From a virus: 64,000 nt of DNA. The translations under genes were made by a program, and so were the position numbers. The notes under the pieces are model-generated. The model saw only the letters and a list, made by a program, of their open reading frames with translations. It did no database searches and was not told where the DNA came from. Location: the IMG/VR virus record IMGVR_UViG_3300037258_000514, positions 1 to 64,000 of that record. One strand, 5' to 3'. Shown here piece after piece: positions 4,312 to 49,376 of this stretch (the stretch's first letter is position 1; each line of letters begins with the position of its first letter).

Positions 4312-4544
4312 CATTTAACCCGGATGGTCCTCCCGTTGAGCAGGATAGCTTCACTTGTGGACACTGCCAGAGAATAACATTTGTTAAACCTGGACAGAGA
4401 CCGGATGATATTGGTGGATTGTGCAAAGTATGTATGAATTTGATTTGTCCTGAATGTGTTGGTTTAATGGTGTGCGATCCTTTTGAAGAGAAACTAAAAC
4501 GAGCAGAACAACGTGATAGATTTAGACGTCAAGTAGATCTATAG
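4284..4544 (+). CDS. Small Cys-rich zinc-binding protein
   Basis: CGHC, CKVC, CPEC. Confidence 0.6.
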   Translation: MLRASNYSVTFNPDGPPVEQDSFTCGHCQRITFVKPGQRPDDIGGLCKVCMNLICPECVGLMVCDPFEEKLKRAEQRDRFRRQVDL

Positions 4545-40740: not shown

Positions 40741-40756
40741 GGAGGCAACGCTTGAA

Positions 40757-40802
40757 GGGCTACAAACTGCTCCTGGAAGGGTTTGTAGCCCATTTTTATT
40801 TT
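40757..40802 (+). terminator. Rho-independent terminator
   Basis: GGGCTACAAAC...GTTTGTAGCCC 11-bp stem then ATTTTTATTTT. Confidence 0.75.
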
Positions 40803-40812
40803 AAAGAAAAGC

Positions 40813-40842
40813 TTGACATTGGACCCTCAATTTTTATATTAT
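40813..40842 (+). promoter_or_regulatory. Sigma70-like promoter
   Basis: TTGACA (40813) with TATATT (16-bp spacer) or TATTAT (18-bp spacer). Confidence 0.7.
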
Positions 40843-40848
40843 TACGCT

Positions 40849-40857
40849 ATGACATAG
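40849..40857 (+). other. Two-codon minigene ATG-ACA-TAG in frame with the Pth ORF
   Basis: ATG ACA TAG ATG at 40849-40860, at the predicted transcription start. Confidence 0.6.
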
Positions 40858-41328
40858 ATGAATCAGAACGCCCCGAATCCTGCCGATAAATACGTGTATC
40901 TCTTCGTCCGCCAAGATCTACCAATTCAACACCAAATTGTTCAATCCAATCACGCCACTCATATGATGGCTTCGATTCGCCCGGAAGAGTGCGTGCCCAA
41001 TATCGTACTTATTGGTGTGCCCGACTTAAACGCTCTTCTTCGTGTGGCGCAGAAGCTTAGAGCTAATCAAATTCCTCACTACGAGTGGGTCGAACCAGAT
41101 TTTGATTTAGGTTTTACTTCAATTGCTACTGCTCCGATTACTGGAGAGAAGCGTCAAGTTTTGAAGAACTATAGACTTTATTCCCCTGGAACCGTTGCGG
41201 TAAACGGCGTCGCTTGTATAGACCAGCCAATCCGCGCAGCTTGTCTCTTAACTGAGGACAGGGGAGCCAGTGCCCGAGTAGCTCAACAGCAAGAGCAGCC
41301 CGGTCTAAACGGGATGGCTGAAGGTTAA
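40858..41328 (+). CDS. Peptidyl-tRNA hydrolase (Pth2-like phage family); C-terminal tail overlaps tRNA-like genes
   Basis: YLFVRQDL...QIVQSNHA, IVLIGV, W.EPD...GFTSIATAP, LKNYRL. Confidence 0.75.
   Translation: MNQNAPNPADKYVYLFVRQDLPIQHQIVQSNHATHMMASIRPEECVPNIVLIGVPDLNALLRVAQKLRANQIPHYEWVEPDFDLGFTSIATAPITGEKRQVLKNYRLYSPGTVAVNGVACIDQPIRAACLLTEDRGASARVAQQQEQPGLNGMAEG
41182..41269 (+). ncRNA. Degenerate tRNA-like element inside the Pth ORF
   Basis: Perfect 7-bp TCCCCTG/CAGGGGA + G + CCA; D-like hairpin CCGTT-GCGGTA-AACGG; weak anticodon and T arms. Confidence 0.45.
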
Positions 41329-41347
41329 AGTCCTTCCTTGGGCACCA
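41272..41347 (+). tRNA. tRNA with CUA anticodon (amber suppressor-like)
   Basis: 76 nt; GCCCGAG/CTTGGGC, GCTC/GAGC, CCCG/CGGG, loop GT-CTA-AA, GAAGG-TTAAAGT-CCTTC, ACCA end. Confidence 0.75.
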
Positions 41348-41350
41348 TAT

Positions 41351-41400
41351 AGGGCGGGCTAGCGCGCTAGCTAGGGGCTTCAGTGCCTCCCGCCCTACCA
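41351..41400 (+). ncRNA. 50-nt mini-tRNA-like RNA
   Basis: AGGGCGG/CCGCCCT + ACCA; hairpin GCTAG-CGCG-CTAGC; T-like arm GGGGC-TTCAGT-GCCTC. Confidence 0.55.
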
Positions 41401-41405
41401 GATAT

Positions 41406-41486
41406 GCCGCTGTAGCTCAGATGGGCTGTATCCAGAGCAGCTTCCTTTTAGGGAGCAGGTCGGTGGTTCGATTCCATCCAGCGGCT
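41406..41486 (+). tRNA. tRNA-Lys(UUU)-like with enlarged D-loop, no encoded CCA
   Basis: GCCGCTG/CAGCGGC, GCTC/GAGC, GCTTC-CTTTTAG-GGAGC, GGTGG-TTCGATT-CCATC. Confidence 0.75.
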
Positions 41487-41502
41487 CTCTTTAAAATCGT
41501 GC

Positions 41503-41530
41503 GTCGGTTCGAACCCGACATGGCGCTCCA
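41503..41530 (+). other. Orphan tRNA 3' half (T arm + 3' acceptor strand + CCA)
   Basis: GTCGG-TTCGAAC-CCGAC-ATGGCGC-T-CCA with no adjacent GCGCCAT 5' strand. Confidence 0.65.
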
Positions 41531-41567
41531 CTTCTTAACTACACCGTGTTTAAGACATATCCACTCA

Positions 41568-48995: not shown

Positions 48996-49201
48996 CTTTT
49001 TAGCTCAGGTACAAAATCTCTATGCGTTGGTTTAAGTCGAAACGACTTTCTAGTTATTTGCATTTTATCCCATGAATAATCAAATTCAGCTCCACAACAT
49101 AAACAGGTGATGTACGAGCGATTTTCTTGTTTTATTGTAAAAACACGACTCGTATGTTCATGTTTGCATCCGAACAAAAAATTAAGTAGATTAAAAAGCA
49201 T
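48992..49201 (-). CDS. Small Cys/His protein (FGCxH...YxxCLxCGxEFxYxW family)
   Basis: Motif pattern. Confidence 0.65.
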   Translation of the reverse strand: MLFNLLNFLFGCKHEHTSRVFTIKQENRSYITCLCCGAEFDYSWDKMQITRKSFRLKPTHRDFVPELKR

Positions 49202-49376
49202 CTTCTACACACTTTGCATCCTCATACACCACTAAACAACGAGGACAGATTTTAGGTCGCTCTCTAGTCTTCATTGAAAATTCTAACCCACAATCCCAAC
49301 AGTGCCACATACGATAAGTTGTTAAAACTACTTCAAGAGTTTGTGAACCACAATTAGGCAGGATTTCGCGGATCAT
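49191..49376 (-). CDS. Zinc-ribbon protein
   Basis: CWDCG...CPRC. Confidence 0.6.
   Translation of the reverse strand: MIREILPNCGSQTLEVVLTTYRMWHCWDCGLEFSMKTRERPKICPRCLVVYEDAKCVEDAF

What the first reader, a model, noticed from the sequence alone, without database searches (positions are those of the whole stretch)
41161..41328. Pth ORF runs into tRNA-like sequence, so processing would leave a non-stop mRNA
Seen: the recognisable Pth2-like fold ends at LKNYRLY and the next base (41182) opens a perfect 7-bp acceptor stem. The only stop (TAA 41326-41328) is in the T-loop of the amber tRNA, so about 48 codons are tRNA-like sequence. Known: arfA mRNA is cut to a non-stop message and thereby controlled by tmRNA. 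Inference: RNase P cleavage at 41182 or 41272 would create a stop-less pth mRNA, so Pth output would depend on ribosome rescue capacity. tRNA maturation and full-length translation would exclude each other on a given transcript.
Basis: inference. Interest (0 to 1): 0.72.

Follow-up and report, generated by a model that had tools for sequence, protein, structure and literature searches.

The report
Stop-less phage Pth2 gene fused to tRNAs
In a soil phage, a small tRNA-hydrolase-like gene has no stop codon of its own and runs straight into a mini-tRNA and a stop-codon-reading tRNA; about two dozen related phages do the same, so cutting out the tRNAs should leave a message without a stop, though this has not been shown.

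Summary
ORF 40858-41328 has a PTH2 fold that ends at Y108 (41181). Base 41182 opens a 7-bp stem that closes before GCCA (41269). The first in-frame stop (TAA 41326-41328) lies in the T-loop of tRNA(CUA) 41272-41347.

The "tRNA-like" stretch is not a tRNA. It belongs to a covarying family of anticodon-less mini-tRNAs of about 50 nt, here with an insertion.

In 23 of 24 distinct tRNA-linked homologous loci, the frame also has no stop before the first tRNA or mini-tRNA. Homologs without a tRNA behind them stop 1-20 codons after the motif.

The gene is also gated at its 5' end. It starts ATG-ACA-TAG, a feature kept in nearly all relatives, including cultured jumbo phages that carry tRNA(CUA).

RNase P cleavage, the stop-less mRNA and control by ribosome rescue remain inference. 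Against a purpose-built device:
- tail lengths fit chance;
- five other genes in this phage also run into tRNAs.

This scan has already noted the amber gate, the mini-tRNAs and the stop-less overlap on other DNA. I found none of them in the paper library I could search. Closest analogues: plant-mitochondrial t-elements and arfA.

The parts
40813..40842 (+). Sigma-70-like promoter: TTGACA, 16-18 nt, TATATT/TATTAT. The -10 hexamer ends 6-8 nt before ATG 40849, which implies a leaderless or near-leaderless message.
   Evidence: 11 of 12 consensus match. 17 of 29 distinct soil loci have a promoter matching at least 9 of 12 whose -10 ends 6-12 nt before the same ATG. It is a consensus match only; the transcription start is not mapped.
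40849..40857 (+). ATG-ACA-TAG, in frame with the PTH2-like ORF: the conserved start followed by an amber codon at position 3.
   Evidence: An ATG (GTG in L038), one or two codons, then TAG in frame stand before the domain in 28 of 29 distinct soil-type loci read (L004 is the exception; the distant N-terminally fused L040 also lacks it) and in cultured phages CBB, BF, Arash, RsoM2USA, ME3 and the 595-kb record LR756511. In most soil loci the next codon is ATC or ATT rather than a standard start codon, and the base after TAG is always a purine.
40858..41181 (+). PTH2-fold domain (108 aa), ending ...LKNYRLY.
   Evidence: AlphaFold2 model with pLDDT 92.4. Foldseek top hits are Bit1 and archaeal Pth2, TM 0.70-0.75, probability 1.0. 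Pfam PTH2 gives only 15.2 bits, under the cut-off of 23. 52 homologs found.
41182..41325 (+). 48-codon tail of the open frame, encoded entirely by RNA genes. It is not conserved as protein.
   Evidence: Tails of homologs differ in length (10-68 aa in the loci) and in sequence, and read as translated tRNA or mini-tRNA.
41182..41269 (+). Class A mini-tRNA: 7-bp acceptor stem, extended first hairpin (a GNRA-capped hairpin in relatives), 4-bp T-like hairpin (loop UUAACU), then GCCA. No anticodon loop.
   Evidence: Covariance model R1, built without this copy, scores 32.5 bits, E about 1e-5. Covariation is strong. Neither ARAGORN nor Rfam calls it a tRNA.
41272..41347 (+). Amber-suppressor-type tRNA(CUA) with encoded CCA. 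Its elbow is non-canonical: T-loop UUAAAGU and a D-loop without GG.
   Evidence: ARAGORN. Rfam 54.6 bits. The loop sequences were read.
41326..41328 (+). TAA, the first in-frame stop of the ORF, inside the T-loop of tRNA(CUA).
41351..41400 (+). Class B mini-tRNA: AGGGCGG/CCGCCCU acceptor stem, a short hairpin, a T-like arm, then ACCA.
   Evidence: R1 scores 24.3 bits, E 0.0013-0.0019. Counterparts sit at the same position in L016, L009, L025, L002, L021 and L035.
41406..41486 (+). tRNA with anticodon loop CUUUUAG (UUU, Lys-type), a 16-nt D-loop and no encoded CCA.
   Evidence: Rfam 53.2 bits with an 11-nt D-loop insert. ARAGORN's call of Trp (CCA at position 27) rests on a different fold and looks wrong.

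Best explanation
The region 40813-41486 is most likely one compact transcription unit. Its order is: promoter, AUG-ACA-UAG, a PTH2-fold ORF with no stop codon of its own, an anticodon-less mini-tRNA, tRNA(CUA), a second mini-tRNA, and a Lys-type tRNA.

The enzyme can be made only when UAG at codon 3 is read through, most simply by the tRNA(CUA) encoded on the same transcript.

At the 3' end, the ORF abuts RNase P-type substrates, much as plant-mitochondrial t-elements do. Each transcript then has two possible fates:
- RNase P cuts at 41181/41182 (and at 41271/41272). This frees the RNAs and leaves a stop-less PTH2 message whose ribosomes must be rescued.
- A ribosome runs on through the unfolded RNA genes to the chance TAA in the T-loop, giving a protein with a 48-residue junk tail.

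tRNA maturation and full-length translation therefore compete on each transcript.

Shown here: the anatomy, the PTH2 fold, the covarying RNA family, and conservation of both the stop-less junction and the TAG gate. Inferred: co-transcription, RNase P cleavage, the stop-less species and any regulatory use of it.
For: The stop-less junction is kept in 23 of 24 distinct tRNA-linked loci at 45-66% protein identity, whatever the first RNA element is: mini-tRNA, tRNA(CUA), tRNA-Arg, or an anticodon-less tRNA capped with GCAA.

Homologs with no RNA gene behind them end 1-20 codons after the motif with an ordinary stop: P0038, L040, L013, L026, CBB, BF, Arash, RsoM2USA, ME3.

The gap to the first element runs from -2 to 24 nt in 22 loci. 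No promoter-like site was found between the ORF start and the RNA genes of the window.

The elements end in an encoded NCCA and are packed 1-3 nt apart. That is the layout of RNase P-processed tRNA operons (established knowledge).

The mini-tRNA is a real structured RNA.

TAG at codon 3-4 is near-universal in the family. tRNA(CUA) was found in all 4 cultured TAG-carrying phages tested and within about 700 nt in roughly 20 soil loci. The one soil locus without the TAG (L004) has tRNA-Arg(UCU) instead.

Precedent: t-elements overlapping the ends of ccmC and nad6 give stop-less mRNAs, with RNase P the likely nuclease (PMC1920247).
Against: There are no RNA data of any kind. Cleavage, transcript ends and tagging are all untested.

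The distance to the first stop fits chance (about 0.036 stops per codon; median overlap about 95 nt). So there is no sign of selection on where translation ends.

Absence of a stop in the short gaps is only weakly improbable (P about 0.02 if loci were independent, which they are not).

Same-strand overlap of a gene with the next tRNA is common in this phage (5 of 30 tRNAs in the large array) and occurs in Arash and CBB. The overlap may therefore be a general by-product of tight packing.

In L021-L023 the RNase P site would remove part of the last conserved codon.

In the window an ATG follows the TAG directly, so some suppression-independent initiation cannot be excluded.
Confidence: 0.5

Rival explanations
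1. Neutral compaction. The tRNA array moved directly behind the gene, the stop was lost because a disordered tail does no harm, and the protein is made mainly from uncut, co-transcriptionally translated RNA with a junk tail. Any stop-less fragments are a tolerated minority with no regulatory role.
For: Tail lengths match the chance expectation. Tails are not conserved and simply mirror the RNA genes. Five other genes of the same phage, mostly HNH-like, end inside the next tRNA, and similar cases occur in Arash and CBB. In L021-L023 the full domain needs read-through of the RNase P site.
Against: A single mutation in the 2-8 gap codons would create a stop without touching the RNA, yet 23 of 24 loci lack one. 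A random tail of 10-68 residues on a 108-residue enzyme would usually be expected to cost something. RNase P acts quickly on such substrates in well-studied bacteria (established knowledge, not tested here).
Confidence: 0.33
2. Ribosome-invasion feedback on the suppressor. Once tRNA(CUA) is active, ribosomes pass UAG at codon 3. Because there is no stop, they plough into the mini-tRNA and tRNA(CUA) precursor, unfold them and block their maturation. The suppressor level would then limit itself.
For: This explains both odd features at once: the early TAG and the missing stop. In about 11 loci the frame reaches or crosses the tRNA(CUA) itself: window, L001, L003, L006, L007, L015, L016, L021, L037, L039, L041.
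Against: In about 9 loci the frame stops before the tRNA(CUA), which lies 20-400 nt further on: L002, L008, L009, L017, L025, L027, L029, L035 and also L026. Downstream tRNAs could still be cut out independently. There are no data on kinetics.
Confidence: 0.1
3. Artefact: an assembly or sequencing error removed the real stop, or the ORF is a dead gene.
For: None found.
Against: The same architecture appears in independent assemblies from many soil metagenomes, MAGs and IMG/VR contigs. The domain is conserved as protein, with invariant residues and a confident fold.
Confidence: 0.02

Closest known systems
Plant-mitochondrial t-elements at the ends of ccmC and nad6 (Forner et al. 2007, PMC1920247)
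   Same: A non-canonical tRNA-like structure overlaps the 3' end of a reading frame. In that system the major mRNA 3' ends lie inside the frame, upstream of the stop, and match the 5' end of the t-element, which points to RNase P. The anatomy here is the same: an ORF without a usable stop that abuts a tRNA-like RNase P substrate.
   Different: That is an organelle system with mapped ends. Here it is a bacteriophage, the ends are unmapped, the element carries an encoded CCA, genuine tRNAs follow it, and the gene also has an amber gate at codon 3.
arfA mRNA of E. coli (reviewed in PMC8012679)
   Same: A cut inside the ORF makes a stop-less message, so output depends on trans-translation. The product also belongs to the ribosome-rescue and peptidyl-tRNA field.
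   Different: arfA uses an RNase III hairpin or premature termination, not a tRNA-like RNase P site. ArfA is not a PTH2-fold protein. Here neither the cut nor the tagging has been shown.
Phage-encoded suppressor tRNAs and stop-codon recoding (bioRxiv 10.1101/2021.08.26.457843); XacN1 suppressor tRNAs with no known target (PMC5852040)
   Same: A phage tRNA(CUA) is needed to read in-frame TAG in phage genes.
   Different: This phage is not recoded. TAG ends ordinary genes, and the in-frame TAGs I inspected in the window are normal stops followed by a gene with its own start. The only clear target is codon 3 of the PTH2-like gene. The XacN1 authors reported finding no target.
PTH2 genes in jumbo phages and mycobacteriophage tRNA arrays (PMC7824862, PMC5966550)
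   Same: Phage PTH2-family genes located in or near tRNA clusters are already described.
   Different: The passages I read in those papers mention neither the early TAG, nor the missing stop, nor the mini-tRNAs.
Small stable tRNA-like RNAs in the T4 tRNA cluster (species 1 and 2 RNAs), and synthetic acceptor/T-arm minihelices used as RNase P substrates (my own knowledge, not checked here)
   Same: These are non-decoding RNAs with tRNA-like ends, made from a phage tRNA operon, and minimal substrates for RNase P.
   Different: The mini-tRNAs here are about 50 nt, form their own covarying family, gave no Rfam match, and overlap a protein-coding frame.

Membership tests
PTH2 peptidyl-tRNA hydrolase (Pfam PF01981) | The alpha/beta fold of Pth2/Bit1 | tested here: met
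   AlphaFold2 model pLDDT 92.4. Foldseek hits 1q7s, 2zv3, 1wn2, 3erj and 1xty at TM 0.70-0.75, probability 1.0.
PTH2 peptidyl-tRNA hydrolase (Pfam PF01981) | Sequence score above Pfam's gathering threshold | tested here: not met
   15.2 bits against a cut-off of 23, E 0.026. A profile search against PDB sequences gives only E 0.39 to a peptidyl-tRNA hydrolase. This is a divergent relative, not a Pfam-level member.
PTH2 peptidyl-tRNA hydrolase (Pfam PF01981) | Conserved active-site residues and hydrolase activity on peptidyl-tRNA | tested here: inconclusive
   The family has invariant R18, D20, Q26, Q29, H32, A33, D81 and T91. The N-terminal block R-x-D...Q-x-x-H-A aligns with the same block of a solved Pth2. 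Activity cannot be tested with these tools.
tRNA (Rfam RF00005), applied to 41182-41269 | Cloverleaf with an anticodon loop, recognised by tRNA models | tested here: not met
   No ARAGORN call. No Rfam match even at E up to 10. Only the 7-bp acceptor stem and the NCCA end are tRNA-like.
tRNA (Rfam RF00005), applied to 41272-41347 | Cloverleaf above the gathering score, with a CUA anticodon in a 7-nt loop | tested here: met
   54.6 bits against 29. ARAGORN reports anticodon CUA. Caveat: the T-loop is UUAAAGU and the D-loop lacks GG, so the usual elbow contacts are missing. Charging and decoding are untested.
Class A/B anticodon-less mini-tRNA family (defined here) | 7-bp terminal stem, two internal hairpins, 3' NCCA, supported by covariation | tested here: met
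   Model R1, built without the window, finds 41182-41269 (32.5 bits) and 41351-41400 (24.3 bits) and nothing else in the 176-kb record. 14 of 15 pairs show compensatory changes.
t-element-type mRNA end formation | mRNA 3' end mapped at the 5' end of the tRNA-like element, made by RNase P | not testable with these tools
   No RNA run holds this stretch. Only the anatomy matches.
arfA-type regulation through a stop-less mRNA | The product is tagged by tmRNA when rescue capacity is ample and released untagged when it is not | not testable with these tools
   No expression data. No SmpB gene in the record. The only RF-1/GGQ-domain match is a short frame interrupted by TAA at 92493-92651.
Amber-gated PTH2 plus suppressor-tRNA module | In-frame TAG within the first 3-4 codons after a real start, with tRNA(CUA) in the same genome | tested here: met
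   Window: ATG-ACA-TAG at 40849-40857, with tRNA(CUA) 415 nt downstream. The gate is kept in 28 of 29 distinct soil-type loci read and in CBB, BF, Arash, RsoM2USA, ME3 and LR756511. tRNA(CUA) was found in Arash, CBB, ME3 and RsoM2USA.
HDV-like theta ribozymes next to phage tRNAs (PMC10879173) | Nested double-pseudoknot in which the 5' strand of P1 pairs with the middle of the element; the associated tRNAs mostly lack an encoded CCA | tested here: not met
   No HDV-type Rfam match at E up to 10. Here the first 7 nt pair with the last 7 nt before NCCA, which does not fit that topology.

The most novel reading that the evidence does not exclude
A double-gated sensor. The PTH2-like enzyme would be released intact only when two conditions hold together: the phage's own tRNA(CUA) is active (UAG at codon 3 is read), and the host's trans-translation is saturated (the RNase P-made stop-less message is no longer tagged for degradation). 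Heavy read-through of host UAG stops would produce exactly that state. The phage would then make extra peptidyl-tRNA-clearing capacity only when its suppressor has begun to jam ribosomes. The mini-tRNA would act as the built-in 'cut here' signal that replaces a stop codon.
Probability: 0.15. Interest if true: 0.85.

Novelty: new variant of a known kind. Interest (0 to 1): 0.68.

Why it matters
If RNase P really cuts here, this is a bacterial-virus counterpart of organelle "tRNA punctuation", in which a tRNA-shaped RNA takes the place of a stop codon. It would also be a natural case where making a tRNA and translating a protein from the same RNA molecule exclude each other.

Together with the conserved TAG at codon 3, it gives a concrete target to the puzzling amber-suppressor tRNAs of phages that use the standard code. 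The XacN1 authors looked for such targets and found none (PMC5852040).

It also has a practical side. The gene is missing or cut short at its 5' end in the annotation of cultured-phage records, and gene callers give it spurious tails or starts.

Tried and rejected
- RNA evidence: no RNA holder listed for this stretch; the single run found is DNA and may be the source sample. I therefore laid no reads.
- blastn of the locus against cultured or deposited phages: no match.
- HDV-like or theta ribozyme reading of the mini elements: rejected on topology and on the absence of any Rfam hit.
- Completion of a stop by polyadenylation after the cut, as in animal mitochondria: a few loci would end in U (L001, L004, L021) but most would not, so I dropped it.
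- Alanine identity (G3:U70) for the mini-tRNAs, as in the tmRNA tRNA-like domain: no G:U at the third pair.
- Reading-frame constraint: all class A mini-tRNAs start at codon position 1 (offsets +1, +7, +10, +16), but this rests on about 3 independent indels, and loci where a tRNA comes first show all phases. I give it little weight.
- A strict anticodon-loop pattern search for suppressors in cultured phages found nothing because the pattern was too narrow. I replaced it with ARAGORN on whole records.
- Other TAG read-through targets in the window: the TAGs at 4542, 36497 and 58710 are followed by genes with their own ATG, and an RBS where one is visible. They are ordinary stops.
- I did not run a complex prediction; no protein-protein claim is made.

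Full report
**What is in the sequence.** The window is the first 64 kb of a 176-kb IMG/VR phage record of soil origin. Virion genes lie on the + strand up to about 40.7 kb and replication genes on the - strand from 41.6 kb. The finding sits at this turning point.

ORF 40858-41328 encodes 156 aa. The part conserved in 52 homologs ends at ...LKNYRLY, whose last codon is 41179-41181. The next 48 codons are RNA genes:
- 41182-41269: a perfect 7-bp stem (UCCCCUG/CAGGGGA) followed by GCCA.
- 41272-41347: tRNA(CUA) with an encoded CCA (ARAGORN; Rfam 54.6 bits).

The first in-frame stop, TAA 41326-41328, lies in the T-loop of that tRNA.

**The protein.** Pfam PTH2 is only a weak hit (15.2 bits, cut-off 23). 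However, an AlphaFold2 model built on 32 homologs is confident (pLDDT 92.4), and its best structural matches are all Pth2/Bit1 (TM 0.70-0.75, probability 1.0). It is a divergent PTH2-fold protein. PTH2 genes in jumbo phages and in phage tRNA arrays are already known (PMC7824862, PMC5966550).

**The "tRNA-like sequence" is a mini-tRNA, not a tRNA.** Taken alone, 41182-41271 folds no better than shuffles (z -0.9), and neither ARAGORN nor Rfam recognises it. Related loci have a 45-61-nt element (most often 52 nt) at the same place. It has a 7-bp terminal stem, a hairpin usually capped by GCAA or GAAA, a 4-bp T-like hairpin, and NCCA.

Seven copies give 12 of 15 pairs with compensatory changes. 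A covariance model built from them, without the window, finds the window copy end to end (32.5 bits, E about 1e-5). It also finds the second element at 41351-41400 (24.3 bits) and nothing else in the 176-kb record. With 13 copies, 96.8% of cells pair against 62% in shuffles and 40-50% when partners are slid. That alignment is fitted to the model, which favours the structure.

The window copy has an insertion of about 36 nt in the first hairpin. Some loci instead carry full-size tRNA shapes whose anticodon loop is replaced by a GCAA cap, for example L002. These elements do not fit the HDV-like theta ribozymes that flank some phage tRNAs.

**Is the missing stop conserved?** I collected 41 related loci from soil MAGs, IMG/VR contigs, metagenomes and Logan assemblies. 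Of these, 24 are distinct and linked to a tRNA or mini-tRNA.
- In 23 of the 24 there is no in-frame stop between the conserved ...Y-R-L-W/Y motif and the first RNA element. That element starts between 2 nt inside the last motif codon and 24 nt after it in 22 loci, and at +73 in L007. The exception is L026.
- The frame then runs 27-179 nt into or through one or two RNA genes. It ends at whatever stop comes first, often in a loop.
- Homologs with no RNA gene behind them end normally 1-20 codons after the motif: P0038, L040, L013, and the cultured phages CBB, BF, Arash, RsoM2USA and ME3.

**Limits of that evidence.**
- The distance to the first stop (median about 95 nt) is what the local composition predicts (about 0.036 stops per codon).
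- The absence of a stop in the short gaps is only mildly unlikely (P about 0.02 if loci were independent, which they are not).
- In the phage's large tRNA array (81-98 kb), 5 of 30 tRNAs are also entered by a real upstream gene on the same strand, with stops at tRNA nucleotides 8-20 and once at 70. Arash and CBB show similar cases. Running into the next tRNA is thus a habit of such arrays and is not unique to this gene.
- In L021-L023 the tRNA begins 2 nt inside the last conserved Tyr codon. There, a complete domain needs the uncut RNA.

**A second gate at the 5' end.** Directly upstream and in frame stands ATG-ACA-TAG (40849-40857). This is not chance.
- 28 of 29 distinct soil-type loci read have an ATG (GTG once), one codon (mostly ACA), then TAG before the domain. 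In most of them the next codon is ATC or ATT, not a standard start codon.
- The same holds, with one or two codons before the TAG and a Shine-Dalgarno sequence, in cultured phages CBB, BF, Arash, RsoM2USA and ME3 and in a 595-kb uncultured phage.
- The base after TAG is always a purine. From my own knowledge, that context favours suppression.
- In 17 of 29 soil loci a sigma-70-like promoter ends 6-12 nt before that ATG. In the window it is TTGACA-16-TATATT, an 11 of 12 match, which implies a leaderless message.
- tRNA(CUA) lies within about 700 nt downstream in roughly 20 soil loci. It is present in all four cultured phages tested. ME3 has only four tRNAs, and one of them is CUA, about 440 nt upstream of the gene.
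- The single soil locus without the TAG (L004) has a normal GTG start and tRNA-Arg(UCU) in place of tRNA(CUA).

The window phage is not recoded: the other in-frame TAGs I inspected are ordinary stops. The XacN1 paper reported finding no target for its CUA suppressors (PMC5852040). My library searches found no description of this gate.

This scan has already noted the gate, the mini-tRNAs behind PTH2 and the stop-less overlap on other DNA. I re-tested each on my own loci.

**How it most likely works.** The most economical reading is a single transcript in which the message and the RNA genes are fused. Without tRNA(CUA), ribosomes stop after two codons and the rest of the RNA is free to fold and be processed. 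Once tRNA(CUA) is available, the PTH2-fold enzyme is translated.

The first RNA element has the features of an RNase P substrate: a 7-bp stem stacked on a T-like hairpin, an encoded RCCA in most loci, and U at -1 in 15 of 24. RNase P should therefore cut exactly at the end of the domain and leave a message without a stop.

This is what plant mitochondria do at ccmC and nad6 with t-elements (PMC1920247). It also parallels arfA, where RNase III makes a stop-less message that trans-translation controls (PMC8012679). Uncut molecules would give the tailed 156-aa form and have their tRNA precursors unfolded by the ribosome.

I put about 0.5 on RNase P-made stop-less messages being a regular, conserved outcome. 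That last reading is a special case of the first. Nothing here is experimental; no RNA run holds this stretch.

**Verdict.** The regulatory mechanism is plausible but unproven, and it is weakened by the chance-like tail lengths and by similar overlaps elsewhere in the phage. Relative to known systems it is a new variant: a t-element-like or arfA-like arrangement in a phage, joined to an amber gate and an undescribed mini-tRNA family.

Noticed in passing
window 41351-41400: A second anticodon-less mini-tRNA (class B) sits between tRNA(CUA) and the next tRNA. It has the stem AGGGCGG/CCGCCCU, a palindromic hairpin, a T-like arm and ACCA. Counterparts occupy the same slot in L016, L009, L025, L002, L021 and L035. 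Function unknown.
   Followed up: partly
window 41406-41486: A Lys-type tRNA (loop CUUUUAG, anticodon UUU) with a 16-nt D-loop and no encoded CCA. ARAGORN miscalls it Trp. tRNA-Lys(UUU) recurs in these arrays (L006, L026, L029, L033, L038).
   Followed up: partly
window 41499-41531: A canonical T-arm (GUCGG-UUCGAAC-CCGAC) followed by AUGGCGC-UCCA, with no matching 5' acceptor strand nearby. It is either a tRNA 3' half or a short minihelix. It folds only weakly.
   Followed up: no
own genome, outside the window: G000:C1:92493-92651 (-): A short RF-1/GGQ-domain frame (...TGGKGGQRRN...) lies inside the large tRNA array and is interrupted by an in-frame TAA. It scores 31.9 bits, just under Pfam's cut-off. 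It could be a broken or recoded ArfB-like rescue factor.
   Followed up: partly
own genome, outside the window: tRNAs at 81481, 82384, 85885, 89865, 97812 (-): Five genes, mostly HNH-like, have their stop codon inside the next tRNA gene. Three use TAG or TGA within the first 17 tRNA nucleotides, one uses TAG at nucleotide 20, and one reads through to nucleotide 70. If RNase P acts first, these messages would also lose their stop.
   Followed up: partly
L002:3320-3398 (also L010 and L035, same position): L002 carries a full-size tRNA shape directly behind the PTH2-like gene whose anticodon loop is replaced by an 8-bp stem capped with GCAA. L035 has a loop without U33; L010 was not read. These are non-decoding tRNA look-alikes.
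   Followed up: no
L042-L045, L076 (cultured phages CBB, BF, Arash, RsoM2USA, ME3): The PTH2-like gene is unannotated or annotated from a downstream start because of the early TAG. In Arash, the tRNA that ARAGORN reads as CUA (49173-49247) is deposited as tRNA-Phe.
   Followed up: partly
L004:2860-3490 (Candidatus Angelobacter MAG / IMG/VR contig): This is the only soil relative without the ATG-N-TAG start (it has GTG with a Shine-Dalgarno sequence). It is also the one followed by tRNA-Arg(UCU) rather than tRNA(CUA), and it carries an insertion in the domain.
   Followed up: partly
window 40741-40800: A terminator-like hairpin with a T-run lies right after the LuxR-type gene and just before the promoter of the PTH2/tRNA unit. 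This suggests the unit is transcribed on its own.
   Followed up: no
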